NCBI GenBank assembly: GCA_000002445.1
Contig: AL929603.2
Span: forward strand, 480,001 to 544,000
Origin: Trypanosoma brucei
Taxonomy: Eukaryota
Length of the DNA: 64,000 nucleotides
Reading direction: 5' to 3'
The notes below the pieces were generated by a model. That model saw only the letters and a program-made list of their open reading frames with translations, searched no databases and had not been told where the DNA came from. A program made the position numbers and the translations under genes. Below are positions 10,246 through 62,916 of the stretch, in pieces. Position 1 is the stretch's first letter; every line of letters starts with the position of its first letter.

Positions 10246-10278
<33 letters not shown>

Positions 10279-40140: not shown

Positions 40141-40141
40141 G

Positions 40142-40295
40142 AACACAATGTACCACAACAAATACCAACACAAAATGTTCACAAATCACAGCACTCGTTA
40201 CCCACAATTCCGCGTACGAAAGCACACAGAGGAAAAATTGTACACTATTTCACACGGAGGCAGTGGGTGTCACAAATATCCAATCATCGCTGAAA
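40142..40295. repeat. copy A of an imperfect ~150-bp direct repeat (partner at 44288..44425) flanking the minus-strand surface-protein gene
   Basis: aacacaatgtaccacaacaaataccaacacaaaatgttcacaaatcacagcactcgttacccacaattcc...cggaggcagtgggtgtcacaaata versus aacacaacatgtcacaacaaatatcaacacgaaatattcactaatcacaacactcgttacccacaattcc...cggaagcagtgtgtgtcacaaatg. Hand alignment gives roughly 80 percent identity, same orientation. Confidence 0.65.
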
Positions 40296-41079
40296 ACAAA
40301 CATAAGCACGACAACGAATGTGAAGGAAATCCCAACCACATACACGTGTACCCAGGACTAAACACCATCAGGCTGGCACTTTGGATTGGAAGTCGAATCT
40401 ACGCAAAAGATAGTGTTCACCAAGAACCTTGCACAATTCCTCCTAGAACTTGAGAAACCCCTCATTCCCTTCCAACATGTACTTTCTTCATTCTGGAGGA
40501 ACACTCCACTCAAGGAGAGACTACATACAATGTTGCCTTCCGTATAAGTGGAAATTGTAACCCCTCGCCCCTGTACATTTGGATCGTAAAAAGGTATGTA
40601 GAAGTCTTGGGACCCCAAATACGGTATTACAGCCATAGCGAATGTTTGACAATTAAATTGTCAGTAACCCGCACTTGCCCCTTACAACTAGTTCCAACCT
40701 AACCTATACAAGTCATTAATAAGACAAATATAGTATTATCTGACACAGATAGTAACAAGCTAATAGCACACTCACAACAGAGCATAATATACAAAAAGAG
40801 TTACATAAAGTTTCTAGCTCCCTTGAGATGTCATGGCATCACCAGAGAGCTCTCCAAACAAACCACCGCTATCTTGATAACGGCACTCAGCATTGCTGGC
40901 AGTTACTGCTAAACAAAAAAAATGATACAACATTCATTATTCATCTTAACAAAACAAATTCATATGATATTACTTATACACTCACATATTTAAGAATTAA
41001 ACAATATGCACACGTGTACATGCACAAACCATTAAAAAAACAAGATGCTACGCAACAATGTTGGTAACGTAACAATAAA

Positions 41080-42462: not shown

Positions 42463-44287
42463 CGTGATTTTGCCTCTACATTCATTAGTCAAAGAGAGGG
42501 ACAAAAGCTTATCATTACAGTCATTATTGTTATTGAGAGACACACCCAGTAAACAAATACATCAATATATCGAAGTTAATAAGTGCCTGGGACAAACCAG
42601 CTGCTGCAGCATCCAACAAAGGGGGAAACACACACCAATACACATATTTACATGGGTTCACCCTCCTAAGCTGCATATTAACATTAAACACCCTCACAGC
42701 TGTTTTCCCATTGATTATCTTACTCTTACATATATCTGCATACAATAAATCCACTTTCTTAAACACCATGCTAGATCCTCCACTTTCCCAAGTGGACTGT
42801 GCTCCAGCCTTTTTGATTTCCTCAACAAGCTTATCTATTCTCCTATCGAGCACCTGTACATTTATGTTAAAATTATCCAAATCCTCCATTGGCTTTATTA
42901 ACTTCGGCTGCTACCTTATTGCTTTATTCGCTAGCACATTGCGTACTTAATCCGGACACATGTGTTACCTTTATCCAATGAACACCACTTTGCCGTTAAG
43001 CTTTATTTAGCATATCATCCTTTCTTCATGCATGTGCTGACACAACACTCTTCGTTGCCCTCTCTGCGTGCATGCACAGCTCCTTGCCTTCCATTTTCTT
43101 AAATCACACACTCTTAAAGGTAACAGTTAAATTTTCAAAACGCTTTCATTAGACACTTGTTTTTATTGAAACGTTTCATAATACTGTGATATGATGGAAT
43201 ATTATGTTAGTTGCCAACACACAAAACAGTCCCAGAACAACAAGTGACCTTCCCCATCAGCATCCTCATTTATATTATTTGCGACATAAAAATAATCACC
43301 ATCCTCTCAGTTAACTCTTGCCATCCTCACACCATATGCAAAGAGCATTAACACACTCCACCACCCCAGAGGAAAAATAATGGAGGGGCAGCCTTATTTA
43401 TCATCACTCACGATTAAAATAACTCAAAACAGAAACACTCCAACGAAAGAAATTATAACCTACGACAAACATGTAAGCACACACATGCAAAGATATGTAT
43501 GTTTATCACTATTGTGGGGAGGAGGAGTTATTTATATGAATGCACTTCCTCATAGTAATACAACTAGTACTATTCACACTGCCAATAAGATTCGTGTCGA
43601 GTTGCAGTTAGGCAACATTTCTGTTTACTTCGCTAAAGCATGAAAGGGTGTAAAAAATATATCTGACATCAGCTGGAGGTAAACGGAAGACGATTATTCA
43701 GTAGCATCGAAAAACAATGATGAGAGAAGTGAAGATGTCATGCACTTCATTGACAGAAAGAAAACATTTACATTTCACTAAACAATTAAAGTCATTTACA
43801 GAGCCACTCATAAATAAATTATCCCGTGGAATGGGGCACCTGCTTATGCTTCCACTGACACAATCCCATAATGGACGATATTCGCCATATTGGGATACGG
43901 ACTTACCTATTTAATATCACCCCATACCGTGATAACTGTCTCCATAATAGCCGTGTAGTACGTATTTGCTTTCACAAGAGCATTATATCATATATTGCTT
44001 ACTTCCCTGACACATTCATTATCTTCAGCGAATAATACACCAGCCTTAGCTACAAGATATCCCATTACACTCCAATAAGATATATGTTATCCCTGTCAGT
44101 CACTTTCACTCTGACATCAAACATACAGGATGCTATTGTGTATACTTCCCCATTAACAAACAAGTCCTGCTCCTCACCCCTAACGTAAAGTTCTCTTCAG
44201 TTTATTCAAAAGTTAACTAACACAACATACAAACATAATTAGCTTATATTTTGGGAAATCATATACTGATCCGCTGATACATGCTGC

Positions 44288-44425
44288 AACACAACATGTC
44301 ACAACAAATATCAACACGAAATATTCACTAATCACAACACTCGTTACCCACAATTCCATATTCTAAAACACATACACTACTTTAAACGGAAGCAGTGTGT
44401 GTCACAAATGTATAATCTTAGTAGC
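44288..44425. repeat. copy B of the imperfect direct repeat (partner at 40142..40295)
   Basis: See copy A. It lies about 1.75 kb upstream (in gene orientation) of the surface-protein ATG, whereas copy A lies about 0.8 kb downstream of its stop. Confidence 0.65.
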
Positions 44426-44699
44426 AAAAAATGTTTTATGCAGTATAACACTGAATAACATAACCAACACTGCTACAAGGGATGTTAAACCCATTAGGAT
44501 ATGCTACTGCTTTTTCGTCCTTAAAACATTATTACCTATCATATATCCATCATCCACACTTCCCTTGCGTTTCCTTGCGCTCTCGCTGAAACGTTTACAG
44601 AGAATCAGGCTCTGGGATAACAATTCTTTCAATCTACTTTGATGCCCAGTAAAGGAAACAAAGATCAGCTCTACATCACCGTACTGTTTGGTAATACTC

Positions 44700-45300
44700 T
44701 CCTATCCGTTTCTAACCAAACTAGTTGCTGATAAGCTAGGGCACTATGTCACTGCACATTAGGGTGACAACACCATCCCTATGGTAGGTAACGAAACCTC
44801 CAGTAGTTCCCACTATGAAGGATCCAGCCCCTCCATTTGCAACATCTTCCGTACCCATGATCCAGCTTTCCATATTGTTATTGGCTGTGAATTCAACCAG
44901 TTAGTTGTATAATTATTTGTGTAACCAATATACCGTCATTTGGCATATCTTCAGTGAAGGACATACTACAGCTCATTGGAGACTCCACCGTGTCGTTCTA
45001 ATGGCCATTTACTCCACCACTCACAGATTCATTTCCCTCTTCTGAATAGACAGCTTTCTCCTTCACAAGACAACAACCATTTGCCTTAACATCTGTTTGT
45101 TCAAACACCATTACCAGATCCTTCAACACTTGTCCAATTGACAATGATGCATTCACAACATGATTAGACACTCTTACTTCGTTTAAATAACTTGCATCTA
45201 TTACCTGTCCAGGTTCATCTGTATTCTCCACTATCTTCCTCAACCCCTGCATTATTGTTTTCCCTTCCCTCCCCTTTATACCATTCTGACGTCACCACTC
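44700..45300 (-). other. degenerate minus-strand coding remnant (possible pseudogene fragment) upstream of the surface-protein gene
   Basis: An 84-aa minus-strand ORF (44998..45252: MQGLRKIVENTDEPGQVIDASYLNEVRVSNHVVNASLSIGQVLKDLVMVFEQTDVKANGCCLVKEKAVYSEE...) is followed by further open stretches in other frames. Its composition is unlike the surrounding A/C-rich DNA, and it has no start context or recognisable domain. Confidence 0.2.
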
Positions 45301-45699
45301 CTAAAATCCATTCAACATTCCCGTCGCCTCCGATTGTTATTTTCAAAAACACTAGCACTCACAACACTTAAGGAATAGCTGAGGTTACATAACCCCATGG
45401 TGATGCAGGCCACCCCAACTCACCGCCAGAGCCTGGTGCCGTACTCAGGTAAGAAAAGAAAAGCGACCGCAGCCTACTCCACTAGGATGAAGTTCAGACG
45501 GAAAGTCCAAGGCATCAATTCACAGTGGGGCACACACCAGATCCGTTACAGAACGGGAATTATTCCCAGAAACAACCTGTGTACGTGCAAGAAAAGAAAA
45601 GAGGCACATTTCGCTTCCTCTCTCTAGGGAGTTGTGGCCTCATTATAAATGTTTTTCGTAAACTCTTTTCATAACTTTAACTGGACTGTCGGGCACACT

Positions 45700-46600
45700 C
45701 TACGGAAGAGTGGTGTAGCGTTTTTATTTTAATATAACTTTTTTTTATGTTTTATGCATGCTTGCCATGAGAACAAATCTCAAATCGCAGGTAAGCGTAT
45801 TCACACCGAAGATAGGGATGTTCTCGCACCGTTGGCAGAGCTATTGTCACGACGTGCATCAGCCAATGTGGCGAAATGACCCTGAGGAGTGGCATGTCCT
45901 GCGCGGTGGGCATGGAAGAGCACGGTGTTACGAATGATAAATAATGAACCTTATTCTCCGCCGGAGAGCGTCCAGGGGAGAAGCGCTCTTTTGTTAGAAA
46001 ACGAGTCCCTGCCACTTGTGTATGCGACGCTCGTGGTATTCGCCAGTCATTGGAAAGGGGGAAAGTATCGTTTACACAATATTGCCGTAATGGTAGTCCC
46101 CCCCCCAAAAGTTTCAAGTCTTTGAATCGATCTTTCTTCTGTATCGATGCAGATGGTTACGTTGGCATAAGCGTCACGGTATTGTTCGCATCGTTGGGGA
46201 ATCGGGCTATGCGTTGGTGAGGGCGAGAGGACAACGGGAAGCAATGAACCGGAAACAGTTTGGATGTACAGACACGGTGCGGCGCCTCGTCCCTCTCCCC
46301 CTCTGATGTGTTGAGCGGCCGTTGCTCTTTTCGTGCAGCTGAGGGATTCGAGAGGCGGCGCCCCCCGGTCCAGTTCCCGACTCCCTTGTGGCGGGAAAAT
46401 TGCTGTCGCTTCTAATGGAAGTGCCCTTGATGTTGGAGGTGTTACAGCTGCCATTTCACGACCGGCGGGTATCCGTGCCGTGAGGCTGAAGGCGCATTCG
46501 GGGGGTTGTCCGGCGGTTGTTCGCCGCGGCGGTTCCGTCAGTGGCCACACTTCGCCTTTTACTTTAATACTTTAGTGGGGTTGTTGTGCTTTAATTATTT
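45700..46600. promoter_or_regulatory. putative divergent strand-switch region / RNA pol II transcription start region containing a GC-rich island (about 46140..46560)
   Basis: The strand composition flips here. The plus strand is A/C-rich to the left (genes on minus) and strongly G/T- and T-rich to the right (46560 onwards: ggggttgttgtgctttaattatttattttattttc...ggtctggggcgttatctatttttttttcgg), where all genes are on plus. In between lies an unusually GC-rich segment (ggcggcgccccccggtccagttcccgactcccttgtggcggg...gttgtccggcggttgttcgccgcggcggttccgtcagtggcc). Confidence 0.45.
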
Positions 46601-49005
46601 ATTTTATTTTCTTAAATGGTCCAATGTTGTCGGCTTGCGGAAGGGGTGGGCGTGTATTCTTTGTCGCCGGTCCTCTTCCTCCTTTTTTTCCTGCTGGGTA
46701 CGGGGCGCATTTGTTATGTGTTTTCGGTCTGGGGCGTTATCTATTTTTTTTTCGGTTCGAGCCGCGCAAATTTACATTCAAACCAGTAAAATACATGGGG
46801 TTGGGTCGGATCAATGTGGTAGAGAATTTTACACGAACGCGTCCGCTGTATGCATAGACGGGAAGAGGTGCATGGGGACATCCGTTTCTGTTGGATAAGT
46901 GGGTGCATCTGTGTATTTGTTTCTTTTGTTCCCCAACGGCGTCACCATTGAAATGTGTTTTTTCTTTGCTTTCAGAGGTGCAGTGGAGTATTTTGCCAAT
47001 ATTTGGTCGCGGCGCGTTTCTATCCGCTGTTAAGGCCAACTTCACGCGGTGTCTGTGTATTCGGTGAAGGTAAGCGCGGACATTGCCACCTGCTGGAATG
47101 AGGACCGTTTTATAGCATTAGTAGCGGCAACACTCTCCTGACATTGTGCTTCCTCACTACTTATTGGGATTTTTTTTTTTGGTGGCATACTTTCGGTGTA
47201 ATTGTTTTGAACGGTTGGGGTGCAATATCCGAAAGTGCTACCGATTGCGGCAGGCGCGGCTTATCTTTGAACATTTGTGTATAGTTGTTTTTTTTTTTTT
47301 CACGGTAGGTGTTAGCATTAAATGTCACTTTTGAGATATTTTTGATGTTTTTTTTTTTCTTAAATCCTAGCCGCTACTCGATTTCACAGCGGTCTACGTT
47401 ACAATTGGGTATTTTCGTTTAATTGCACCGAATCCGGACGGTATTAACTATAGAAACCACAGTGATGTTCTTCTATTCTCTATTTACGGCTGTCTCGTTG
47501 CAATTCCTGTTTGCTGTGTCGGTATGGCGATTAGTTCCCCCTTTTTTTTTGAATGTATGCAACATGTATATTTATAACCGTGTTGTTTGCAAGTTTTTTG
47601 TTAGGTAGGGCTGTTGGAAGAGTTAATGTTTACGGTATCCCTCTTCCAAAGCAATTGGCGAAGTTACTGACATGCCGAAGGATTAGCTCCCACTTTATTA
47701 TTTCGGCAACTTCCAGGGGGGAAGGGAGAAAACTAACCCTAGTCATATGAATCTCTTACGACAGCGGGTTGGCCGAACGGTCAATTTTCGCCGTCGGAGT
47801 CTTGAAGTATAATTTTCGTTCGATATGGATTAGATGTTGTAACTTCCTAATAATTTTGCGGTCATTTCTCGGTGTAGCAACAGATTTACGCGCCGCACCG
47901 GGATTACGTGCGTTTCCAAGGTCTTTAACATTTAAAGCATTGTCAACAACTGCTGTCGGATTTTTTTTTAAATGTGGAATTAGAAATTATTAAATAGCGT
48001 TTTGGTTACTCACAATAAGTAATTCTATGCCAACACGAAGTGACTTGGCTGGGCGCATTGCATATTTCGAATATGGAGTAATGAATATCTTTTTTATCGT
48101 TATGTTGGGATAAATACGAAAAATATTACGCTTGTTGTTTCTGTTCTACTTTGAAGTTATTGCATCATGTACGATGCAATAACGGAAGTTCTTCCAATAA
48201 TTTGGACAATGAAGCCCCGCACGCTTAATTTGTTTATATAAAGTGTGTTGTTGCTGATTCTTTTTGGAGTTTGTCTCTCTGTTCTTTTTTGTTTTTTTTT
48301 AAATATAAGTACCTGGGGGGAATGCGGAGCGAGAAAACGGATGTTGGAACTGTCGATTTAGCTTTCCTATTATTATTTCTGGCTAGGGACTCCAATGGTG
48401 GAATTAAGTTACTTCTAAATCATTTTTTTTCCAAAGGAAAGTAGTTACTCAGTATTGTAAAAGGTTTCGTCCGTTGTAGGTTTGTATTATCATGAAACAG
48501 GTAGTTGTAACGTATATACCATTCTTTTTTACTTTTATGCCATGCAAATTAATAATAGTAATAAGTGATGACCTGTAGCTTGATTTAAGCCGTGTTACTC
48601 GCAATTGTTTTTATTACTCTTTGAACTGTTGGCATGATCGTTACATTTTTTGAATTTTTGCGAAGAATGTACCCCTCGTGAGCTATTACTCTCTTGATAT
48701 GAATATTCAGTTGATTGAGTTGACTTCTTTCTTTGACTGTTTTTTTTTTTTAATCAGGGTTAATGCTCTTTCATTTTATTGATATCAGAACATGTGTATT
48801 ATATTGGTAAACTTTGTATCGATGCAAAAACTATCTTTTTTTTTTTTACCGTCAGAGGTTTGAATTTGCGTTTTACCCCATTTGAGGAGCATGCACAAGT
48901 TTTTGTTTTTTGTCTTTAGCTTTTGCTTGTGCAACTGTAAGCACTTGTTTATTATTATTATTATCTTATACTTAATTTCCTATGGTACAGTGACGTTATG
49001 ATCAT

Positions 49006-49025
49006 TATATATATATATATATATA
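49006..49025. repeat. (TA)n microsatellite
   Basis: tatatatatatatatatata in ORF-free T-rich DNA upstream of the calpain-like array. Confidence 0.9.
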
Positions 49026-51582
49026 CTTCTTATTGAATTGTAATGTAACGACCACATTTTCAGAGAGGCCGTGAAAAGAATACTCTAACCTTGCTTTCCT
49101 TTTTATATTAAATAAAACATGAAGTAGTTATTTCATAACTTTACTGACGCCCATAATAAGTTGTCTGTTTCTATTTCTTCTAAAGGGGGGAGGCACGTGG
49201 TCAGGTCGAAGGCGCATCCCCAATGTTATTTTCTTCATCTCCATGGGCAATGTCAATTAACGGTGCTTTCAATACCATTCCTTTTAATGATTTCCTTTAA
49301 TATATCAAATATTTTAAATGAGTCCTGCACCTTCGTTGTCGGATTTATACCGAACTGGGCACTGTGGTAAAGCTGGTTGAAAAAAAGATAGCGAAAACAA
49401 CAAAAACGGTCTTTGTTTTTTGCTGTTGATTTCACTCAGGACATGAAAACAATAAATTTGAGTATCTTAACTGTTAAATTGGTACATACATTGGTGAATC
49501 AAATGCGTTGTGGTGGTGATAACTGATTTAAAATATCGCACTCAATTTTTTTGATACGTTAGTTCTATCTGAGTGATTTGGATGTATTTCCTTTGACGAT
49601 ACGCTTGCTTTTCTAAAGAAACGTTATCACTAATGTTGTTGTTCCCTTCTTTATTGTATAGCTTGTTGCCAGTAGACACTTACTTTATTGGTTCTGCTTC
49701 ATGATATCTTCAAGCTAAAAATTTGTTGTAAACCTTGTTTCGTTGCATTCAATTTTGATCGGTTTCTTTCTCTTATCGGTTATGTTTTATTATAATTGTT
49801 TTGTCATCAGTATTTGTGTGAAGCAGGCACCAGTCTTCCTTCTCTGGAGAACTTTAAAGGCGGAGGAATTTTTTACCTCTCCCATAAAGTTGAACTTTAG
49901 CCTTTTCCATTATCTTTTTAAAAAATCTGACTAAATATCTTTGTGGGATAAGAAACTAGCAGTGCCTCATAGCATTGACATCCCGGTCACTCTTCTCTGC
50001 CCAGCACATGGTATTGTTAAAGAACACATGTATATGTTGCTGTTGTTTGTTTTTATATAAGCTTTTAAGTAACATCACAGATATTTTGGTTTATGAAGTT
50101 CACTCCTTTCGTCATCAATTGCTTGGAGTATGTGTGGTCTGCAACTGATTTTTTTTTGCCGTTTATTTGTTTTGTCCTTTCTTTTTTAAAAAGTGTCCCA
50201 CCAAAGGGCATGCCAATAATCTACCCTTCGTGGTCGCACGTCTTTCTTTTTTTTTTTTTGACATCCAATCTCATTTCCTCCATTACAGTGCCGTTGTAAG
50301 ATATGTTTTTTTTTTTAATTCTTTCGGACGGGGATTAATGACCAAAAGTACCAAAAAGGAGAGACGGAGGCGAGAAAAGAAAATGTGGCCGTTTTACCTA
50401 AATGTTAGTCTCTTCCCTTGTCTTCTCTTCCACAGCCTTTGAAGTTTTCAACCATCGTAGGTACTTTTTTATTCTTTTTTTTATTCGGTTAGAAATTTTT
50501 TTTATTGCTGTCAAGATCTTTTGTTTTAGTAATGTTTGTCCTCTTTTATTCTTGTGTAATTATGTAAACGCCCTTTTGTCTTGGGCTTGAGACTTTTTAT
50601 TCCATGACTGTTTATGGGAACTCGTGTGTTATACATTTGTTAGAGGCCCCTTTTCCGTGCTTTCTCTTTTTTGGGGGGAGGGGAGTTTGCGAAAGGGATT
50701 ACCAAGTTGCACCCCCAAAATTATTAATAATAATAATATACATTTGTTCTTAATGCGTATCAATAGCAAATAAATACCAGGGATTTGTCTTTTAGAAGCT
50801 CTCACCGCATCGCGCAGGAGACAAGTTCAGAAAAGTAGTAGCATTCTCTTATAGGCTTGTTCTTAACTTTGAAATATTTTATTTACTTTCCATTTGCTCT
50901 CTCTCTCTGTGAATGGGTTTGCTGCCTCACAAATTTTCAATACTCATTATGTATATCGTTTCTTTTCCCAACGCTTTCACACATTTGACATTGGGTAGGA
51001 TAAGTCAGTGACTTATCCGTTTTGTTTTCAATTAGACGTGGTGAAGTGAATTGAAGTGTGTCCCGTTGCTATGTAGGGGTGTTTGAAACACAGTGTAGGT
51101 GGGGAAGTAGTTGGTTAACTTTTCTCATGTGTGCACTTGTGTCGTGTGATAGGTAATTGCTTTCCTTTTTATTCATTTCCTAAAAAAACACTATGTGCCC
51201 TCCATACCCTGCGGAAAGATTAGTTGTGCTCTGATAAAGGGATGTGTTTTATATGTTCATGTGATGAGATTAAGTTATTCTGGCGCTGCGACGGATGGTA
51301 TGGCACTTTGTGATTTAAATGTACTTTCAGGAAGCTGTATTGTGCTATCGGTGGGTTTTGTGTGGTAATGCGCGCACTCGTTGTTTTAGCAGGCTTCGCT
51401 GCTGCTTTAGTTGTTGTGTGTTTGTTATCAGCGATTTATTTTTCCGATCCCTTATGCAGTGAATTGCATCGGTCCCTATATATACGTCCCCCCTTTTTTC
51501 ACACTGGTACACGGAGGATAGGGTTATTTGAGAATAAGCGAATCCAAGCATATCTCTTATCCTTAAGCATCAGGGGCAAGAT

Positions 51583-54500
51583 ATGTCGGAGTTCGAACTT
51601 ATGAGTGAACTGAGTGAAAGCGCAGCAAAGGGTGCGCTCAGCGAACAGGCAGAAGATGGTCATCGTACCTACTCTCCTGGGCCTGAAGAGGAAGAAAACC
51701 CTGATGCAGCAGGGCGTGAAGGCGCGGCAAAAGATGGATTGGATGCTCATGCTGAAGAGGCCTCCCCAGCGCCATCACCTGCAGGTGAATCGGATGAAAA
51801 GGCCAGCAAATCTGAGCATGAAAGTGAGGCAAAGGAAGGGTCGGATGGCCGTGCTGAAGAGGCCTCCCCAGCGCCATCACCTGCAGGTGAATCGGATGAA
51901 AAGGCCAGCAAATCTGAGCATGAAAGTGAAGTGAAGGAAGGGTCGGATGGCCGTGCTGAAGAGGCCTCCCCAGCGCCATCACCTGCAGGTGAATCGGATG
52001 AAAAGGCCAGCAAATCTGAGCATGAAAGTGAAGTGAAGGAAGGGTCGGATGGCCGTGCTGAGGAAGCTTCCCCAGCGCCATCACCTGCAGGTGAATCGGA
52101 TGAAAAGGCCAGCAAATCTGAGCATGAAAGTGAAGTGAAGGAAGGGTCGGATGGCCGTGCTGAAGAGGCCTCCCCAGCGCCATCACCTGCAGGTGAATCG
52201 GATGAAAAGGCCAGCAAATCTGAGCATGAAAGTGAAGTGAAGGAAGGGTCGGATGACCGTGCTGAGGAAGCTTCCCCAGCGCCATCACCTGCAGGTGAAT
52301 CGGATGAAAAGGCCAGCAAATCTGAGCATGAGAGTGAGGCAAAGGAAGGGTCGGATGGCCGTGCTGAGGAAGCTTCCCCAGCGCCATCACCTGCAGGTGA
52401 ATCGGATGAAAAGGCCAGCAAATCTGAGCGGGAAAGCGGGACCGCTGACGGGTCAAGCGGTCGTCCTGAAGAAGTTTCCCATGCGTTTTCACCTAATAGG
52501 GAATTGGAGGACAAGGCCAATAAATCGGGAGGCGAGAGTGTGACCAAGGGCTCGGATGGCCGCCCCGAAGATATTTCTCATCCGTTTTCACCTAATAGGG
52601 AATTGGAAGAAAAAGCCAATAAATCGGAAGGCGAGAGTGTAACCAAAGATGGATCGGATGGTCATGCTGAAGAAACGTCTCCAGTGCAGTCACCTGAAGG
52701 AGAGGTAGGCGAAAGGTCTGCCGGGGCAGGATCTGATCATGAGAAACAGAAAGGCGAATCATGTTTCGATGACCGTGACACTGGCAATGATCAAGCTGTT
52801 GACCGCAATGCTCACGATGCAGCGCCCCATTTGGACGACAAACACACCAATGGGGCCGCTGCAGATGCTACCGATGCACCACGCCACACTCAAGAGGTCA
52901 ACGACCTGTTCAAGCCTCGAATGACACCTTACAAACAGCCTGACCGTTGGGATCCCATTGAAACCTATCTGGGAGAGGATGTCAGTGATGAGTTGGAGAT
53001 CACCACGGCACGTAAGCCCGTTTTCACCGATGAGGAGAAAGCTGACGTGCCAACCTTTAAGAATGGCGAACCAGACTATGAGGGTGAGTACCTTTCATGT
53101 TTCGATGAGCCTAATCTGCTGTACCGTATTTACAATCGTGAGGAGAAGACGTGGGCCTTCTACAACGACACATACAGCTATGAGATGCATGTACGATTCA
53201 CCTTTGCTAAACTCTCAAAACTTCAGGCACTGGGGAACACGAAGATGTACACTCAAGAGACAGGTGAGCATATTGCGGAAGTCATTGTATATCCTCGGGA
53301 GACCGAGATGTTCGTCAAGGGAAATGCTAATGGCTTTACAAGCAAGCTTCGAGCAGTCCCTCTAACGGAGGAGTACTACGCCCGGCGGCAAGAATTGGCA
53401 AACAACAAGATTCAAGAAGAAATCGCTCGCGTCAAAAGTATCGTTGGCGATGTAACAGATTCGGAGCAGGTTCTCAAGGCCTGTGTTGAAAATGGCATCC
53501 CTTTTGTTGACCTTGAGTTTCCACCATGTCAAGACTCTTTGGCGACCGGTGCAAAAAAGCCGTTCAAACGCCTTCCATGGGTTCGTCCTTCGCAATGCCT
53601 CCCCGATTACATGGCTGATCAGGTGCGCCTCTTCCGAGGACCAATTCGACCTGGCCAGGTGGACCAAGGAGAACTGGGTGACAGTTGGGTCATGTGCTCT
53701 ATAGCGGTGCTGACGGAGCGACCAGACAAGGTCGTCAACATGTTTCGTCACCCAACTGACCCAGAATTGGGTAAGAAGGAGCGTTCTGTGGGCGGTTACC
53801 GCGTATCTCTCAACAAGAATGGGCAATGGCGCAGCGTGATTGTGGATGACTATCTTCCCATGTCTGGTGGCAGGCTAAAATATGCAAAAAGCAGATACGA
53901 CCTCGCGGAAATATGGCCATGCATTCTGGAGAAAGCCTTCGCCAAGCTGCATAATAGTTATGCCAATATCTGCTCCGGTGATCCTCTCCACGCCCTCCAA
54001 GATATGACTGGTTTCCCGACCTCCAGGTTTGACGACGCCTTTGCCAACGCTCCCTTGTCTGGGAAGGACGATCTGTTCCAGGACTGGGTGAGGTATGTGA
54101 AGGCACAGTACCAGATTATCTTAAGCACACCTGGAAAGAATCCAAGAGACAAAGCTTCCGGCGAATGCCACACAGCAAGGCGGTACACAAGCGTGGGTCT
54201 CCTTACAGGTCATGCGTATGTGGTTCTCGATGCAGCATTCTTCCCCGAGTATGAGTTACGTTTGGTAAAGCTGCGTAATGCCTGGGGTCGTGGGTCGGAG
54301 TGGAACGGCGACTGGTCTGACGGCGACGAAAAGTGGGAACGGTATCCAGATGTGGCGGTGAAGTGCGGTTACAGCAATGGTGAGAGCGATGGCACGTTCT
54401 GGATGGCGTGGGATGCATGCTTGCGCTACTTTAACGGCGGGGGCGTGTGCTTCACGAGGAACTCAATCAACGATTACCGTGTACCCTCCACGTTTGTAAA

Positions 54501-55023
54501 CTGTACGCCTTCCTGTGTCCTTGAAATAACTGTTGAGCAGCCCACGTGGATGTGCTTTATGCTCTCTCAGAAGGATAAACGCGGCTCCCCTGAGGCCCGT
54601 GAGTACAACCCCGTCATGATCAGCATCGCGCAACCCATTGGGGGCGGATTGTACAGGGTAGTGCAGAACAGCTCCGCTGACGCCTATCATCCGCTTAGCG
54701 ACAAGTGGACTTTCTACCAGGCTCGTGATATCAGCATCCTATACGAATTGTTGCCAGAATCCTCACCGTACATTGTGATACCCCGCTTAATGTTAGTGGA
54801 ATCGCAGCCTGATGAGGTACCTTACACATTGAGTTTCTCCTGCAAGCGTGCTGTTGGTCACGAAGGCGTGACTGTGCAGCTGAAGACCATCGATAAGGAC
54901 AACAAGGTTCTCTACAACTTCCCCAAGTTTGAGCCCGACCTCAGCTCTACTGATGTGGAGTACCAAGCACGGGTTGCTCACAAGCCGTTTCCTGAGCTGA
55001 AGGTGGACTCCTCCGTGTGCTGA
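51583..55023 (+). CDS. calpain-like cysteine peptidase family protein (kinetoplastid type, predicted catalytically inactive) with N-terminal 34-aa tandem-repeat region
   Basis: 1146-aa ORF. After the repeat region comes a kinetoplastid calpain N-terminal (DUF1935-like) domain, CFDEPNLLYRIYNREEKTWAFYNDTYSYEMHVRFTF...ALGNT. The calpain protease core then follows. The catalytic Cys motif reads QGELGDSWVMCSIAVL (Ser in place of Cys). The His motif GHAYVVLD and the Asn motif LRNAWGRGSEWNG are retained. C-terminal domain-III-like sequence follows. It resembles the chromosome-1 CALP1.x cluster of T. brucei (tentative). Confidence 0.93.
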   Translation: MSEFELMSELSESAAKGALSEQAEDGHRTYSPGPEEEENPDAAGREGAAKDGLDAHAEEASPAPSPAGESDEKASKSEHESEAKEGSDGRAEEASPAPSPAGESDEKASKSEHESEVKEGSDGRAEEASPAPSPAGESDEKASKSEHESEVKEGSDGRAEEASPAPSPAGESDEKASKSEHESEVKEGSDGRAEEASPAPSPAGESDEKASKSEHESEVKEGSDDRAEEASPAPSPAGESDEKASKSEHESEAKEGSDGRAEEASPAPSPAGESDEKASKSERESGTADGSSGRPEEVSHAFSPNRELEDKANKSGGESVTKGSDGRPEDISHPFSPNRELEEKANKSEGESVTKDGSDGHAEETSPVQSPEGEVGERSAGAGSDHEKQKGESCFDDRDTGNDQAVDRNAHDAAPHLDDKHTNGAAADATDAPRHTQEVNDLFKPRMTPYKQPDRWDPIETYLGEDVSDELEITTARKPVFTDEEKADVPTFKNGEPDYEGEYLSCFDEPNLLYRIYNREEKTWAFYNDTYSYEMHVRFTFAKLSKLQALGNTKMYTQETGEHIAEVIVYPRETEMFVKGNANGFTSKLRAVPLTEEYYARRQELANNKIQEEIARVKSIVGDVTDSEQVLKACVENGIPFVDLEFPPCQDSLATGAKKPFKRLPWVRPSQCLPDYMADQVRLFRGPIRPGQVDQGELGDSWVMCSIAVLTERPDKVVNMFRHPTDPELGKKERSVGGYRVSLNKNGQWRSVIVDDYLPMSGGRLKYAKSRYDLAEIWPCILEKAFAKLHNSYANICSGDPLHALQDMTGFPTSRFDDAFANAPLSGKDDLFQDWVRYVKAQYQIILSTPGKNPRDKASGECHTARRYTSVGLLTGHAYVVLDAAFFPEYELRLVKLRNAWGRGSEWNGDWSDGDEKWERYPDVAVKCGYSNGESDGTFWMAWDACLRYFNGGGVCFTRNSINDYRVPSTFVNCTPSCVLEITVEQPTWMCFMLSQKDKRGSPEAREYNPVMISIAQPIGGGLYRVVQNSSADAYHPLSDKWTFYQARDISILYELLPESSPYIVIPRLMLVESQPDEVPYTLSFSCKRAVGHEGVTVQLKTIDKDNKVLYNFPKFEPDLSSTDVEYQARVAHKPFPELKVDSSVC
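51751..52464 (+). repeat. 7 near-identical tandem copies of a 102-bp unit (34-aa repeat AEEASPAPSPAGESDEKASKSEHESE[V/A]KEGSDGR) in the N-terminus of the first calpain-like CDS; about 2.5 further degenerate units run to roughly 52720
   Basis: The exact period is visible in the sequence: gctgaagaggcctccccagcgccatcacctgcaggtgaatcggatgaaaaggccagcaaatctgagcatgaaagtgaagtgaaggaagggtcggatggccgt recurs at 51751, 51853, 51955, 52057, 52159, 52261 and 52363 with only a few substitutions. All three frames on both strands are open across it, which produces the artefactual ORFs 51614..51934 +, 51638..52492 - and 51747..52547 -. Confidence 0.95.
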
Positions 55024-56255: not shown

Positions 56256-58325
56256 TTGAAGGGAGATCTGCAAATAATGAGCTCGCGTAACGGCAGCCTC
56301 GCTGGATGCTACGTGGATGAATTCGATGAAGCCGCCACTACCAAACCTGAAACGAGCAGCATTTACCGCTACGGCCGACCCGTATACGAGGGGACGCCAA
56401 CTGCATGCTTCGAGGGCGGGTTGTTGTTTCGGATTGTGGAAGAAGGTAAGAACAACCGCTGGTCTTTTTACAATGACACGCCAAGCAACCAGATGCGCGT
56501 GGAGGTTATTTTTGGAGCAAATTCTGCTATTAAGGCCCTTGGCAACACAAGCCTAATAAAACTACCCGATGGTTCCTACAAGGGTACCGTAACGGTGTAC
56601 CCATTAGAGACAGAGGTGTTCGTTGAAGGTAAGTGTGACACTTACGAGAGCAACATCGTTGCGGAGGAGCTTTCAACGGAGTACTTGCAAGATGTAGCGG
56701 TACAGAATGCGAAGGTAATCGAAAAGGAAACGCAAGAAGTGAGCAAGTTGGGAGGGGAGAATTCCTCACCAGACGACACGCTAGCAGCGTGCATTGCAAA
56801 GAAGACAAAGTTTGTTGACTTAATTTTTCCACCCGGGCAGGAGTCCCTGCAAATCGGTACTCCGCACAAGCTGAAAGTGATACCGTGGGAACGACCAAGC
56901 ATGTACCTTTCCGATGAAAATGCCCTGCACGCGCGCTTATTTCGTAACAATATCCACCCGGGAAACATCGATGAAGGTGAGCTGGGAGATTCGTGGTTTA
57001 CGGGGGCTTTGGCTTGCATGGCCGAGTTCCCGGACCGGGTGCGCGATATGTTTCGTCACCCACGGAGCATCGAGGAGGGAAAGAATGAACGCGAAATAGG
57101 TGCGTACCGCGTCACCTTCAATAAGGATGGATGGTGGACCAACGTGATTATTGACGATTACTTACCATGCTCCGGTGGACATCCCATGTTCGCCCGGTCG
57201 TACGGGGATCCGATGGAGTTATGGGTCTCATTGGCACAAAAGGCCTACGCCAAGCTGCATGGTGGTTACGGTTTCCTCGTCGTAGGCGACCCACTCCGCG
57301 CGCTTCAGGACCTTACTGGCTTCCCCTGCTCGTCCTTTAACACCGCCTTTGAGAATGCCAAAATGAACGGAGGGGAGGAACTGTTTGTCCATTTATTGCA
57401 ATACGGACAGACGAGCTATCAGACAATACTGACCGTCCCCACAAGGGGAGCCTTGAAGCTGCAAGGAGCGAGTGTCGAGGCATATGAGGCCACTGGGCTT
57501 TTACCGGGGCATGTATACACAGTGTTAAGTGTAATGCCCTTTCCGGAATACAACCTTCGCCTGTTGCTGCTGCGCAATTCGTGGGCCAATCATTCGAAAC
57601 ACCGATGGAATGGGGCATGGAAAAGGGGTAGTGAGAAGTGGAAACAGTACCCAGGCGTGGCGGCAGCTTGTGCTGGGGCATGTGATGCAGATGGTGTTCT
57701 CTGCGTTGAGTGGTCAGAGGCTCTTGCTCTTTTTGCCGGGTGTGGTGTTTGCTTCGTACAAGACACCCCGTATGACTACCGTATTCGTGGGTGCTTCCAG
57801 AAAGCTATACCGAGTGTTTGCCTTGAGATCAGTGTCTCTGTACCCATTGTGCTGTGCCTTTCGCTAACCCAGGAGGGCTGCCATGGCACAGACAAGGCGG
57901 ATTACTCACCCATCATGCTCAGTGTTGCTCATGGTTCTGGCTGTAACCAAATTATGACTGTTGAAGCGAACAGTGGCTTCGACGCGGACCATCCCAATCC
58001 GGGTTTCACCTTCTTTGAAACACGTGAGGCGAACATGTTCTTTCATATGATACCGGAGAAGTCCCCTTACCTCATCATACCACGAACCATGACACCTTAC
58101 AAGGAATTGTCTTATGTGCTTAGTATTCACAGCCCAGTGGAGATCGGCACACCGGAAAGTGCCGTATTTGTCGCATTTCGGACACTGGCACCCGAATGTG
58201 GTGTCTTCGCCAACTGTAGGAACTTCCAAGTGCAAGGAAGCACCTGCCAGGCGGAGTTCCAGGCTCGCGGAACAGAACAGTTTTTCCCTGATATCTATCT
58301 TGGTAACTCTATTGAGCTGTCCTAA
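56256..58325 (+). CDS. calpain-like cysteine peptidase family protein (kinetoplastid type, predicted catalytically inactive)
   Basis: 689-aa ORF; the true start may be the MSSRNG Met 7 codons in. DUF1935-like N-terminal block: ACFEGGLLFRIVEEGKNNRWSFYNDTPSNQMRVEVIFG...ALGNT. Cys motif EGELGDSWFTGALACMA (Ser in place of Cys). His motif GHVYTVLS. Asn motif LRNSWANHSKHRWNG. It is collinear with the flanking paralogues. Confidence 0.93.
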   Translation: MKGDLQIMSSRNGSLAGCYVDEFDEAATTKPETSSIYRYGRPVYEGTPTACFEGGLLFRIVEEGKNNRWSFYNDTPSNQMRVEVIFGANSAIKALGNTSLIKLPDGSYKGTVTVYPLETEVFVEGKCDTYESNIVAEELSTEYLQDVAVQNAKVIEKETQEVSKLGGENSSPDDTLAACIAKKTKFVDLIFPPGQESLQIGTPHKLKVIPWERPSMYLSDENALHARLFRNNIHPGNIDEGELGDSWFTGALACMAEFPDRVRDMFRHPRSIEEGKNEREIGAYRVTFNKDGWWTNVIIDDYLPCSGGHPMFARSYGDPMELWVSLAQKAYAKLHGGYGFLVVGDPLRALQDLTGFPCSSFNTAFENAKMNGGEELFVHLLQYGQTSYQTILTVPTRGALKLQGASVEAYEATGLLPGHVYTVLSVMPFPEYNLRLLLLRNSWANHSKHRWNGAWKRGSEKWKQYPGVAAACAGACDADGVLCVEWSEALALFAGCGVCFVQDTPYDYRIRGCFQKAIPSVCLEISVSVPIVLCLSLTQEGCHGTDKADYSPIMLSVAHGSGCNQIMTVEANSGFDADHPNPGFTFFETREANMFFHMIPEKSPYLIIPRTMTPYKELSYVLSIHSPVEIGTPESAVFVAFRTLAPECGVFANCRNFQVQGSTCQAEFQARGTEQFFPDIYLGNSIELS

Positions 58326-60717: not shown

Positions 60718-62916
60718 ATGGGGTGTGGTGCGTCTTCTACTCAGTCAGAAGATGGCATGCACGAACCCATACCCCCTATGGAAATGGTGCGCAAGCAAAT
60801 TGCAGCCGCTCAACCAGAGCAAAACGGAGTTAAGGAGGGTCAATCGAGTAAAAAGAAAAGAAGTGGTGATGATCCCCCTGACGAGTTTGAGGAACTGACA
60901 GTAACCGCACTTCCACAGCGGTGGCAACGGGACTCGACCTACAAGTGCGGGTATCCCATGATCACGGGCGACGAAGTGAAACCATGCTTTGAAAAGGGTT
61001 TATTATACCGTATTGTGAAGGGTGACACATGGGCATTCTACAATGATACGCGCACGTACGAGATGTGTGTTTCCTTCACCTTCGGAAGGGATTCGACGGT
61101 GCGTGGTATGGGCAACACTGTCATCACCAACCTGGAAGGCGGGGAAATCCTTGCAGAGGCCTCAATATACCCCTGTGAGACGGCCATATTTGTGAGAGGG
61201 AGATTCAGCGGATTCCGGAGTAAGATAAAGGCACAGCCTCTCTCTGACGAGATTCTGAAGGCAAAGGTTAAACAATACGACAAGTACATACAAGAAGATT
61301 TGGCGAGGGTTAATGCTATGATCAATGAGAATGATACCGATGACGCTATTCTTGCGAAGTGTGTTGAAGGACCCACACCTTTCATTGACATTAGGTTTCC
61401 CCCCAACCAAACTTCCATTGAGCGCGGTGCCGTGTTGCCCATCATGACGATTCCATGGGCTCGTCCCGACATGTACCTCCCTTTAGGTTTTCCTCCCCAA
61501 GTCCGCCTATTCCGCAGTGCAATCAGTACTGTGAACATTGAACAGGGAGATCTTGGGGACTACTGGATTATGTGCGCAATCGCCTCCCTTGAGGATGATA
61601 CGGAACGGTTGCGTGGGATGTTCAGACATCCTGTCTCATGTGAAAAAACGGCTAAAGAGCGCGCGGTAGGGGCTTATCGCGTCACGCTTAACAAAAGTGG
61701 ATGGTGGCATTCCGTAATTGTGGACGATTATCTTCCCGTAGTTGGAAACAGACCGAAGTTTGCGCAGTCCCTGAGTGACCCGTGTGAGGTGTGGGTTTCT
61801 ATTCTTCAAAAGGCCTACGCAAAGGTGCATGGAAGCTACGTGAATATTGTTGCAGGTGATCCACTACACGCGTTGCAGGATTTCACAGGCTACATATCGT
61901 CGAGGTATGACTACATACTTGATCCGGAACCGGGCCTCGAAGAGAATGAAATATTAGAGCGGTTAGAGAAGTATGACCAGCAAGGTTTCAAAATTATCCT
62001 TAGTACCCACAATGCAAAGACAGATAACCCAAATGTGGATGAAACATACAGGGAGGTGGGCCTGCTGGCAGGTCACGCATACCCGGTAAAAGCCGTTCGT
62101 TACTTCGCTAGTGAAAATATTGCCCTGCTGCAGATACGCAATCCGTGGTGTCGCGAAACCGAGTGGAAGGGTGAGTGGGCCAATGGCAACGCGGAGTGGA
62201 AGTCCCACCCAGAAATAGCAAAAGCCTGTGAAATAAATGCGCAGGACGGTAGTTCCTTTTGGATGTCCTGGGGGGATGTACAGAAGTACTTCAATGGATG
62301 TGGTGTTCTTTTCCGCTACCCGAGGAGCGTTGACTATCGTGTTCGTGGTGTCTTCCGAGGCGACATTCCCAGTGTGTCCATCCTCATCAGCGTAAACAAA
62401 ACAATATCATTAGTCTGCTCTCTCACTCAAGAGGACCGCCGAGGAACGAAGATGGCGGACGATTATCCCCCAATTATGTTAAGTTTGTGTGGTGGTGATC
62501 GCCTCTCCGACGATATGGAGGTGGAAAAGAGCACCACTACGGAAGCGGACTACCCCGGCGAAGACTTAACTTTCGTCCACAGCCGTGATGTTGGTATGAT
62601 GTGCACGCTTACGCCCTTCAAGTCACCGTATTTATTGGTGCCACGCATCATTACAGGACGTGATGAGGAGCACCCGTATGTTATCGGACTGTTGTCTGAA
62701 GCGGAATTTGGTGCAGACCTGAAAGCAGAGTTCTTCAGCGTCCCAGCGAACTGCGAGGTCTTCCGGAACGCCAAGTCGTTTGCCTTCCAAGGAGATGTGG
62801 TGGAGGCGAAATTCCAAGTGCGCACGCCGGATTGTCGTTTTCCCACGGAGTATAACAGCACTGTGATAGTAAAGGCCAAGAAGGGCGACTGGTATGTGGA
62901 AAATAAAAAAAAGTAA
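60718..62916 (+). CDS. calpain-like cysteine peptidase family protein (kinetoplastid type, predicted catalytically inactive) with N-terminal dual-acylation motif
   Basis: 732-aa ORF beginning MGCGASS. Gly2 is a candidate N-myristoylation site and Cys3 a palmitoylation site, as in the cytoskeleton-associated calpain-like protein CAP5.5. DUF1935-like block: KPCFEKGLLYRIVKGDTWAFYNDTRTYEMCVSFTFG...GMGNT. Cys motif QGDLGDYWIMCAIASL (Tyr in place of Cys). His motif GHAYPVKA. Asn motif IRNPWCRETEWKG. Confidence 0.93.
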   Translation: MGCGASSTQSEDGMHEPIPPMEMVRKQIAAAQPEQNGVKEGQSSKKKRSGDDPPDEFEELTVTALPQRWQRDSTYKCGYPMITGDEVKPCFEKGLLYRIVKGDTWAFYNDTRTYEMCVSFTFGRDSTVRGMGNTVITNLEGGEILAEASIYPCETAIFVRGRFSGFRSKIKAQPLSDEILKAKVKQYDKYIQEDLARVNAMINENDTDDAILAKCVEGPTPFIDIRFPPNQTSIERGAVLPIMTIPWARPDMYLPLGFPPQVRLFRSAISTVNIEQGDLGDYWIMCAIASLEDDTERLRGMFRHPVSCEKTAKERAVGAYRVTLNKSGWWHSVIVDDYLPVVGNRPKFAQSLSDPCEVWVSILQKAYAKVHGSYVNIVAGDPLHALQDFTGYISSRYDYILDPEPGLEENEILERLEKYDQQGFKIILSTHNAKTDNPNVDETYREVGLLAGHAYPVKAVRYFASENIALLQIRNPWCRETEWKGEWANGNAEWKSHPEIAKACEINAQDGSSFWMSWGDVQKYFNGCGVLFRYPRSVDYRVRGVFRGDIPSVSILISVNKTISLVCSLTQEDRRGTKMADDYPPIMLSLCGGDRLSDDMEVEKSTTTEADYPGEDLTFVHSRDVGMMCTLTPFKSPYLLVPRIITGRDEEHPYVIGLLSEAEFGADLKAEFFSVPANCEVFRNAKSFAFQGDVVEAKFQVRTPDCRFPTEYNSTVIVKAKKGDWYVENKKK

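What the first reader, a model, noticed from the sequence alone, without database searches (positions are those of the whole stretch)
51751..52720. Near-perfect 7x 102-bp tandem array (34-aa acidic Ser/Pro/Glu-rich unit) inside the first calpain-like gene
Seven consecutive 102-bp units are almost identical at the nucleotide level, followed by 2-3 decayed copies. Unit-to-unit identity this high implies recent expansion or ongoing concerted evolution, so copy number is probably polymorphic between strains. The assembled length could be collapsed or expanded relative to the real locus. The unit (AEEASPAPSPAGESDEKASKSEHESEVKEGSDGR) is very acidic and carries SP/SPAG motifs. That is a plausible phospho-regulated or immunodominant repetitive epitope, as tandem-repeat proteins in trypanosomatids frequently are B-cell antigens. 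All six frames are open across the array, which explains the spurious overlapping ORFs in the track.
Basis: seen in the sequence. Interest (0 to 1): 0.55.

Follow-up and report, generated by a model that had tools for sequence, protein, structure and literature searches.

The report
Coding tandem repeat in trypanosome calpain-like gene
A real 102-bp in-frame tandem repeat sits near the start of the known Trypanosoma brucei calpain-like gene Tb927.1.2100 (CALP1.1); it encodes an acidic, probably unstructured tail with published phosphorylation sites, and assemblies disagree on its copy number, which is ordinary for trypanosome repeat proteins.

Summary
The array is real. The window is T. brucei brucei TREU927 chromosome 1, and the ORF 51583-55023 is exactly XP_001218910.1, which is Tb927.1.2100 or TbCALP1.1.

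The anatomy differs slightly from the finding:
- Six 102-bp units are 93-100% identical.
- A seventh unit is 80% identical and diverges in its last third.
- Two diverged units and one decayed copy follow, and one decayed copy lies upstream.
- About 1.1 kb is repeat-derived.
- Only three of the six frames are open, not all six.

Other assemblies show fast turnover. T. b. gambiense DAL972 and T. equiperdum IVM-t1 carry five units, with different interior variants. The rest of the gene differs by only 0.16-0.39%. An Illumina assembly of T. equiperdum OVI breaks inside the array. Edge units are conserved by position while interior units turn over, which fits unequal recombination with homogenisation.

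At the protein level, variation among units is mostly synonymous. All four published phosphosites of the protein (S81, S95, T365, S366) map to repeat-derived units. T. congolense and T. vivax orthologues carry unrelated 99-bp and 96-bp arrays at the same place.

The antigen idea is untested. Overall this is an ordinary coding minisatellite in a known gene, of low interest.

The parts
51583..55023 (+). CDS of Tb927.1.2100 / TbCALP1.1, a calpain-like protein of 1146 aa (end includes the stop). It is the host gene of the array.
   Evidence: The ORF comes and its translation. The sequence exactly matches XP_001218910.1/CAJ16288.1 on a 1,064,672-bp contig. Pfam finds DUF1935 and Peptidase_C2.
51649..51750 (+). 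Decayed repeat copy upstream of unit 1, encoding ...EEEENPDAAGREGAAKDGLDAH.
   Evidence: It is 58/102 identical in register to unit 1. Shuffles give a mean of 27, sd 4.4 and a maximum of 42 in 2000.
51751..52362 (+). Six near-identical 102-bp units, each 34 aa (AEEASPAPSPAGESDEKASKSEHESE[A/V]KEGSD[G/D]R). This is the homogenised core of the array.
   Evidence: Pairwise identity is 94-102/102, and units 2 and 3 are identical.
52363..52464 (+). Terminal seventh 102-bp unit. Its first two thirds are canonical and its last third is diverged (SERESGTADGSSGR). It is conserved by position in all three assemblies.
   Evidence: It is 82/102 identical to unit 2. It differs by 2 nt from the last unit of DAL972 and of IVM-t1.
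52465..52665 (+). Two diverged units of 33 aa and 34 aa (PEEVSHAFSPNRELEDKANKSGGESVTKGSDGR and PEDISHPFSPNRELEEKANKSEGESVTKDGSDGH).
   Evidence: Tandem Repeats Finder reports period 99 and 88% matches. They are homologous to the 34-aa unit, with z = 8.8-9.6.
52666..52776 (+). Last decayed copy (AEETSPVQSPEGEVGERSAGAGSDHEKQKGESCFDDR). It carries the published phosphosites T365 and S366.
   Evidence: Alignment z = 5.8 against the 34-aa unit. Phosphosite mapping is, using PMC4621835.
51823..51825 (+). Codon of S81, a published phosphosite in SEHES*EAK of unit 1. The same peptide also occurs in unit 6.
51865..51867 (+). Codon of S95, a published phosphosite at AEEAS*P in unit 2. One search counts 6 copies of the tryptic peptide AEEASPAPSPAGESDEK and all seven units contain the sequence, so the unit cannot be assigned.
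53056..53364 (+). DUF1935, the kinetoplastid calpain domain I(K), at residues 492-594. It is the first folded domain after the repeat-bearing extension.
   Evidence: Pfam E = 1.4e-34.
53503..54450 (+). Calpain protease-like domain (Peptidase_C2) at residues 641-956. The catalytic Cys position holds Ser (LGDSW).
   Evidence: Pfam E = 3.4e-57.
51638..52547 (-). Two overlapping antisense ORFs, 51638-52492 and 51747-52547. They are by-products of repeating a unit that has no stop in two antisense frames, and are not genes.

Best explanation
This is an in-frame 102-bp coding minisatellite in the 5' part of Tb927.1.2100 (TbCALP1.1).

DNA level (shown):
- A core of near-identical units is flanked on both sides by progressively decayed copies.
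- The first, penultimate and last units are conserved by position between Trypanozoon assemblies. Interior units are gained, lost and homogenised.
- This pattern is what unequal sister-chromatid or allelic recombination, replication slippage and gene conversion produce. The mechanism itself is inferred from the pattern.

Protein level:
- The array makes up most of a roughly 490-aa extension ahead of domain I(K). The extension is acidic (pI 4.4, 27% D+E), rich in Ser/Pro/Glu and poor in hydrophobic residues (8%), so it is most probably intrinsically disordered.
- The host protein is a catalytically altered calpain-like scaffold, with Ser in place of the catalytic Cys.
- Each unit supplies the same phospho-acceptor serines (AEEAS-P and HES-E).

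Most likely function (inferred): the array is a multivalent, phosphorylation-tuned acidic tail. Its charge changes during the stumpy-to-procyclic transition, and its number of sites scales with copy number. The host-protein interactions it would affect are not known.
For: Identity of the gene: exact match to XP_001218910.1.

Array anatomy.

Turnover between assemblies:
- Copy number is 7, 5 and 5 units.
- 927_1 differs from EQ_1 by 2 nt. 927_6 is identical to EQ_4. The last units differ by 2 nt.
- 927_2 and 927_3 are identical, and 927_5 differs from them by 1 nt. These carry an E-V variant seen only in TREU927.
- The 2559 nt downstream differ by only 0.16-0.39%, and the 168 nt upstream are identical.

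Constraint on the peptide: among 14 interior units there are 11 synonymous and 6 nonsynonymous changes, over 23.3 and 78.7 sites. The ratio is 0.16, with binomial p = 3e-4.

Phosphorylation: PMC4621835 reports S81 +4.25, S366 +3.23, T365 +2.72 and S95 +2.64 (log2) during differentiation. All four positions are S or T in this translation and lie in repeat-derived units. S95 and S366 occupy homologous positions.

Disorder: composition. The AlphaFold2 model has no secondary structure in residues 1-511 and pLDDT of 25-42 there.

The extension is a conserved feature and a repeat hot spot. All 11 orthologues have an acidic N-terminal extension (pI 4.05-5.1). T. congolense has 99 bp x 3.5 at 97% and T. 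vivax has 96 bp x 2.5 at 90%, at the same position.
Against: - No experiment links the repeats to any function.
- The unit sequence is not conserved outside Trypanozoon. Amino-acid z-scores against the T. congolense and T. vivax units are 2.4 or less, and DNA z is about 0. Copy number seems free to vary. Both points fit a merely tolerated expansion.
- The synonymous excess rests on 17 changes, and many are GAA/GAG transitions.
- The AlphaFold2 model is poor everywhere (mean pLDDT 41 from a 12-sequence alignment), so it is weak evidence for disorder.
- Phosphosite numbers within identical units cannot be assigned to a unit, and I could not see the underlying spectra.
- The 5-unit counts come from one Sanger assembly and one hybrid assembly (MiSeq plus about 7,500 PacBio reads). 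Either could be collapsed.
Confidence: 0.65

Rival explanations
1. Neutral, tolerated expansion. The N-terminal extension only has to be long, acidic and disordered. Repeats arise there by slippage or unequal exchange and drift in number. The unit sequence and its phosphorylation have no specific role, and the phosphorylation is opportunistic modification of exposed SP and acidic serines.
For: [quoted passage not shown]
- Non-salivarian orthologues have acidic extensions without tandem arrays.
- Copy number differs between closely related subspecies.
- No protein among 1.84 billion representatives carries a related unit.
Against: - The synonymous excess among units gives a ratio of 0.16, p = 3e-4.
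- The phospho-acceptor Ser-Pro is retained even in the decayed copy, and is phosphorylated there.
- Phosphorylation changes 6- to 19-fold during differentiation while protein abundance changes by only +0.36 log2.
Confidence: 0.25
2. Immunodominant repetitive B-cell epitope. The array is a T-independent or 'smokescreen' antigen, or a useful diagnostic antigen, like the GM6 repeats of another T. brucei calpain-like protein. This does not exclude the other explanations.
For: - Tandem-repeat proteins of trypanosomatids are often B-cell antigens (Goto et al., as cited in PMC3808341 and PMC12921242).
- GM6 lies in a calpain-superfamily protein.
- Tb927.1.2100 was among 12 peptidases detected by mass spectrometry in the released proteome of bloodstream and differentiating forms (PMC9184580).
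Against: - No serological data for this protein turned up. Only 6 papers hold the gene ID, none of them about antigenicity.
- Peptide strings of the unit occur in no searchable paper.
- The protein has no signal peptide or surface anchor that I could see, and it begins MSEFEL.
- This claim rests on analogy only.
Confidence: 0.12
3. Assembly artefact. The array, or its copy number of 7, comes from mis-assembly of a shorter or longer locus.
For: - Short-read assembly fails here. The T. equiperdum OVI contig ends at the last unit.
- Exact repeats of up to 187 bp at lag 204 lie inside the array.
- Counts differ between assemblies.
Against: - Three independent assemblies all contain an array at this place, with the same edge units and different interior variant mosaics. 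A pure artefact would not reproduce that.
- The 714-bp core carries unit-specific variants that anchor an assembly.
- From my own knowledge, not checked here, TREU927 chromosome 1 was clone-based, finished Sanger sequence.
- Existence of the array is therefore safe. Only the exact number is open.
Confidence: 0.05

Closest known systems
GM6 antigen repeats of T. brucei ClpGM6 (Tb927.11.1090) and the H49 repeats of T. cruzi H49/calpains
   Same: Both are tandem amino-acid repeats inside catalytically altered kinetoplastid calpain-like proteins. Both show changing phosphorylation in the same differentiation dataset (PMC4621835). The repeats are non-catalytic additions to a calpain scaffold.
   Different: GM6 and H49 units are 68 aa (204 bp), lie centrally in very large group-4 proteins, are partly conserved between species and are proven antigens located at the flagellum attachment zone (PMC4181241, PMC3808341). 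Here the unit is 34 aa, N-terminal, in a group-1-type architecture (I(K)-II-III) and restricted to Trypanozoon. Nothing similar came up in a search of 1.84 billion representatives. Antigenicity is unknown.
N-terminal arrays of the CALP1.1 orthologues in T. congolense IL3000 (P0002) and T. vivax (P0005)
   Same: Same gene and same position just after the start codon. The periods are similar (99 bp/33 aa and 96 bp/32 aa), the composition is acidic, and nucleotide identity between units is high at 97% and 90%.
   Different: There is no significant unit similarity to the T. brucei unit. They have fewer copies (3.5 and 2.5). The T. vivax unit has almost no Ser and no SP motif.
Trypanosomatid tandem-repeat proteins as a class (MARP, Leishmania K39-type antigens and others) and coding minisatellites in general
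   Same: Head-to-tail, in-frame units with near-identical DNA, decayed edges, copy-number differences between strains, and hydrophilic charged composition.
   Different: Members of that class are defined by sero-reactivity, which was not tested here. This array is short (7 units) compared with many of them.

Membership tests
Kinetoplastid calpain-like proteins (CALPs), group 1 of Ersfeld et al. 2005 as summarised in PMC4181241 | N-terminal kinetoplastid-specific domain I(K) (Pfam DUF1935) | tested here: met
   PF09149 matches with E = 1.4e-34 at residues 492-594.
Kinetoplastid calpain-like proteins (CALPs), group 1 of Ersfeld et al. 2005 as summarised in PMC4181241 | Calpain protease-like domain II (Peptidase_C2) | tested here: met
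   PF00648 matches with E = 3.4e-57 at residues 641-956. PDB calpain cores match with E down to 2.7e-34.
Catalytically active classical calpains | Cys-His-Asn catalytic triad | tested here: not met
   The Cys position holds Ser (LGDSW). It aligns to the LGD[C]W motif of calpain-3, whose crystal construct is itself a C-to-S mutant. Ser is the consensus of the 12 orthologues. D700 and W702 are invariant, the His of GHAY (H877) is nearly invariant and the Asn of RNAWG (N899) is invariant.
Coding minisatellite / variable-number tandem repeat | Head-to-tail units of tens of bp, in frame, with high unit identity | tested here: met
   Period 102, 96% matches, no indels, phase 0 relative to the ORF.
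Coding minisatellite / variable-number tandem repeat | Copy number differs between individuals or strains | tested here: inconclusive
   There are 7 units in TREU927 against 5 in DAL972 and 5 in IVM-t1, each with its own variants. These are assemblies, not sized alleles, and collapse cannot be excluded.
Trypanosomatid tandem-repeat B-cell antigens (Goto et al.) | Recognition of the repeat by sera of infected hosts | not testable with these tools
   No serological report was found. Goto 2011 could not be read.
GM6/H49-type calpain repeats (group 4 CALPs) | 68-aa (204-bp) repeat units in the central part of the protein, between calpain domains | tested here: not met
   Here the unit is 34 aa and N-terminal to domain I(K). 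No related repeat protein was found by an exhaustive phmmer search. I did not make a direct alignment to a GM6 unit.
Dually acylated CALPs/SKCRPs (such as CAP5.5) | N-terminal Met-Gly-Cys myristoylation/palmitoylation motif | tested here: not met
   The protein starts MSEFEL, and the orthologues also start MS.

The most novel reading that the evidence does not exclude
All three salivarian orthologues examined (T. brucei, T. congolense, T. vivax) keep a homogenised array of 32-34-aa units at the same N-terminal position of CALP1.1, although the unit sequences are unrelated. This could mean selection acts on the periodic, multivalent acidic and phosphorylatable architecture rather than on the sequence. 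Copy number would then tune a differentiation-linked property of this released pseudo-protease, such as its release, its partner binding, or its visibility to host antibody.
Probability: 0.1. Interest if true: 0.5.

Novelty: new member of a known kind. Interest (0 to 1): 0.2.

Why it matters
The practical value is modest.

1. Anyone mapping short reads, designing RNAi, CRISPR or tagging constructs, or quantifying peptides and phosphosites for Tb927.1.2100 should know three things:
 - About 1.1 kb of the 5' coding region is repeat-derived.
 - Site numbers such as S95 cannot be assigned to one unit, because all seven units contain the peptide.
 - Gene models in short-read assemblies are truncated here (700 aa in T. 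equiperdum OVI).

2. The array is a candidate VNTR marker for Trypanozoon strain typing.

3. If the repeat turned out to be sero-reactive, it would be a Trypanozoon-specific antigen candidate from a protein that parasites release.

None of this changes current understanding. Repeat-bearing calpain-like proteins and fast-evolving coding repeats are well known in trypanosomatids.

Tried and rejected
- The search for homologous proteins with the repeat region alone returned nothing, not even the gene's own cluster. This is probably due to word-candidate saturation and composition filtering.
- The search of protein representatives with residues 57-394 gave only 8 weak hits (best E = 4.3e-7). The three hits inspected are unrelated repeat proteins, so I treated the hits as chance.
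- AlphaFold2 on a 12-sequence alignment gave a poor model (mean pLDDT 41). I used it only as weak support for disorder and did not run a fold search.
- Homology between the T. brucei unit and the T. congolense or T. vivax units was tested at protein and DNA level and rejected.
- Key papers could not be read: Liu et al. 2010, Ersfeld et al. 2005, Goto et al. 2011 and Urbaniak 2013. No supplements are held for the JCB phosphoproteome. The TrypTag supplements held as text do not list the gene.
- Searching papers for the unit's tryptic peptides found nothing.
- The phage, plasmid, E. coli and prokaryote-genome collections are irrelevant to a trypanosome locus and were not used.
- I rejected the idea that the antisense ORFs are genes. 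They exist only because the unit lacks stops in two antisense frames.
Full report
**What and where.** The window is Trypanosoma brucei brucei TREU927 chromosome 1. The ORF 51583-55023 (+), 1146 aa, is an exact match to XP_001218910.1/CAJ16288.1 on a 1,064,672-bp contig. The same cluster holds 'Calpain-like protein 1.1' of T. b. equiperdum. Papers call the gene Tb927.1.2100 or CALP1.1. Pfam finds DUF1935 (domain I(K), residues 492-594) and Peptidase_C2 (641-956). The next two + strand ORFs (56256-58325 and 60718-62916) have the same two domains, so 'first calpain-like gene' is correct.

**Checking the observation.**
- Tandem Repeats Finder reports a 102-bp period at 51750-52436, with 6.7 copies, 96% matches, no indels and score 1241. 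It also reports a 99-bp-period pair at 52468-52646.
- In the ORF's frame the units read AEEASPAPSPAGESDEKASKSEHESE[A/V]KEGSDGR.
- Units 1-6 are 95-102/102 identical to unit 2.
- Unit 7 is 82/102. It is canonical for about 68 nt and then diverges.
- A 33-aa unit, a 34-aa unit and one decayed copy follow. All are demonstrably homologous to the 34-aa unit, with z = 5.8-9.6 against shuffles.
- There is also a decayed copy upstream at 51649-51750. It is 58/102 identical in register, against a chance value of 27 +/- 4.4.
- In total about 1.1 kb (51649-52776, roughly 11 units) is repeat-derived.
- The claim that all six frames are open is wrong. Only the coding frame and two antisense frames lack stops, and the others have 4, 42 and 8 stops. 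The two open antisense frames explain the ORFs 51638-52492(-) and 51747-52547(-).

**Turnover between strains.**
- The T. b. gambiense DAL972 and T. equiperdum IVM-t1 proteins are both 1078 aa, which is exactly 68 aa (two units) shorter.
- At the DNA level (loci L001 and L002) each has five 102-bp units.
- The first unit differs by 2-3 nt between strains, and the terminal hybrid unit by 2 nt. The penultimate unit of TREU927 is identical to that of IVM-t1.
- Interior units differ between strains. TREU927 units 2, 3 and 5 carry a GAAGTG (E-V) variant seen in no other assembly and are identical or 1 nt apart, which indicates recent duplication.
- By contrast, the 2559 nt downstream of the array differ by only 0.16-0.39% between the three assemblies, and the 168 nt upstream are identical.
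- The Illumina-based T. equiperdum OVI contig ends exactly at the start of the last unit, and its gene model is truncated to 700 aa. This shows directly that the array breaks short-read assemblies.
- A homogenised interior, stable edges and decayed flanks form the classical signature of unequal exchange, slippage and gene conversion. That mechanism is inferred from the pattern and was not observed.
- A caveat applies to the counts. The IVM-t1 assembly is a hybrid of 300-bp MiSeq reads and only about 7,500 PacBio reads. The 5-unit counts are therefore assembly results, not sized alleles.

**The encoded peptide.**
- The region ahead of domain I(K) is 491 aa, with pI 4.39, 27% D+E, 26% S+T+P, 8% FILMVWY and GRAVY -1.41.
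- Each unit has 10 acidic and 4 basic residues.
- An AlphaFold2 run on 12 orthologues predicts no secondary structure at all for residues 1-511, with pLDDT of 25-42. The model is poor overall (mean 41), so this only agrees with disorder and does not prove it.
- Among the 14 interior units of the three assemblies, variation is mostly synonymous. There are 11 synonymous and 6 nonsynonymous changes over 23.3 and 78.7 sites, giving a ratio of 0.16 and binomial p = 3e-4.
- This suggests the peptide is under purifying selection. The numbers are small, however, and many of the changes are GAA/GAG transitions.

**Phosphorylation.**
- Domingo-Sananes et al. (PMC4621835) list Tb927.1.2100 with 'S81 +4.25; S366 +3.23; T365 +2.72; S95 +2.64' (log2) during commitment to differentiation. 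Protein level changes by only +0.36.
- In this translation all four positions are Ser or Thr.
- S81 is in SEHES*EAK of unit 1, and S95 is the Ser of AEEAS*P in unit 2.
- T365 and S366 are in AEET*S*P of the decayed copy. S366 is the position homologous to S95.
- All seven units contain the peptide AEEASPAPSPAGESDEK, of which one search counts six tryptic copies, so 'S95' cannot be assigned to one unit.

**Host protein.**
- The catalytic Cys position holds Ser (LGDSW), while His (GHAY) and Asn (RNAWG) are kept. The protein is therefore unlikely to be a conventional cysteine protease.
- There is no N-terminal acylation motif, since the protein starts MSEFEL.
- Literature reports CALP1.1 in several contexts:
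  - procyclic lipid-raft and flagellar proteomes (PMC5617996);
  - higher in early than in late procyclics (PMC5879877);
  - up-regulated in bloodstream forms according to a review (PMC4181241);
  - expressed in pre-metacyclic clusters (PMC7007551);
- Its localisation is reported inconsistently.

**Comparison across species.**
- All 11 orthologues have an acidic N-terminal extension of 151-423 aa, against 491 aa in TREU927, with pI 4.05-5.1.
- T. congolense has a 99-bp x 3.5 array at 97% identity, and T. vivax a 96-bp x 2.5 array at 90%. Both lie at the same place just after the start codon.
- Their units show no significant similarity to the T. brucei unit at protein level (z of 2.4 or less) or DNA level (z about 0).
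- The stercorarian orthologues (T. cruzi, T. theileri, T. melophagium, T. conorhini) have no clear tandem period.
- The paralogue CALP1.3 aligns only from residue 491 onward, at 38% identity.
- An exhaustive phmmer search of 1.84 billion representatives with the repeat region found only weak hits; the three inspected are unrelated repeat proteins.
- The extension is thus a conserved feature and a recurrent repeat hot spot. The T. brucei unit itself is an orphan restricted to Trypanozoon.

**Interpretation.**
- Best supported: a coding minisatellite that encodes a multivalent, phosphorylated, acidic and disordered tail of a pseudo-protease scaffold, and that turns over by unequal recombination.
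- Main rival: the repeats are merely tolerated in a region that only needs to be long and acidic.
- The B-cell-antigen idea rests on analogy with GM6 and H49 and on the protein's release. No serology was found.
- The array cannot be a pure assembly artefact, because three assemblies share it with different variant mosaics. The exact copy number in TREU927 could not be verified without reads.

**Verdict.** This is a real and correctly located feature of a known, annotated gene, and an ordinary example of a well-known kind (trypanosomatid tandem-repeat proteins and VNTRs in coding sequence). Interest is low, at 0.2. The only mildly unusual point is that homogenised arrays of 32-34 aa with unrelated sequences occur in parallel in all three salivarian orthologues examined.

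Noticed in passing
window 41080-42543 (-), within 38500-51500: A 487-aa minus-strand ORF hits the Pfam trypanosomal VSG_B domain (E = 3.9e-25). It sits in a roughly 13-kb stretch with no long + strand ORF and with negative GC skew at 40-46 kb. This looks like a chromosome-internal VSG-like gene or pseudogene island, or a strand-switch region, just upstream of the calpain cluster.
   Followed up: partly
window 51583-55023, 56256-58325, 60718-62916: Three tandem calpain-like paralogues share the DUF1935 + Peptidase_C2 architecture. The catalytic Cys position holds Ser in the first (LGDSW) and Tyr in the third (LGDYW). The best PDB match of the first is a calpain-3 chain with Ser at this position (I take it to be a C-to-S mutant construct), which mimics the natural Ser.
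   Followed up: partly
window 10212-10308: An AGC/CAG-type microsatellite (periods 3, 9 and 12, up to 10.7 perfect AGC copies) lies inside the 1174-aa ORF 9019-12543, which has a weak AAA ATPase hit. It is a second coding repeat in the window.
   Followed up: no
L005 2-975 (T. vivax contig SOPI01000360.1): A 20-bp unit repeated about 50 times (88% matches) lies immediately upstream of the T. vivax CALP1.1 orthologue.
   Followed up: no
L003 1-562 (T. equiperdum OVI contig CZPT02001916.1): The contig ends exactly at the start of the last 102-bp unit, and the deposited gene model (SCU72837.1, 700 aa) is N-terminally truncated as a result. This annotation artefact has propagated into UniRef.
   Followed up: yes
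window 21553-30264 (+): A 2903-aa ORF carries FAT, PI3_PI4_kinase and FATC domains plus a weak ATR-like HEAT match, so it is a PIKK-family kinase gene. The long AT-rich gap downstream (30-34 kb, GC about 0.35) holds several short simple repeats.
   Followed up: no
literature on Tb927.1.2100: Reports of CALP1.1 localisation conflict. The text of PMC5617996 calls it a soluble flagellar protein enriched at the tip, but that paper's own supplement says 'none shown'. PMC6027212 assigns tip enrichment to CALP1.3.
   Followed up: partly
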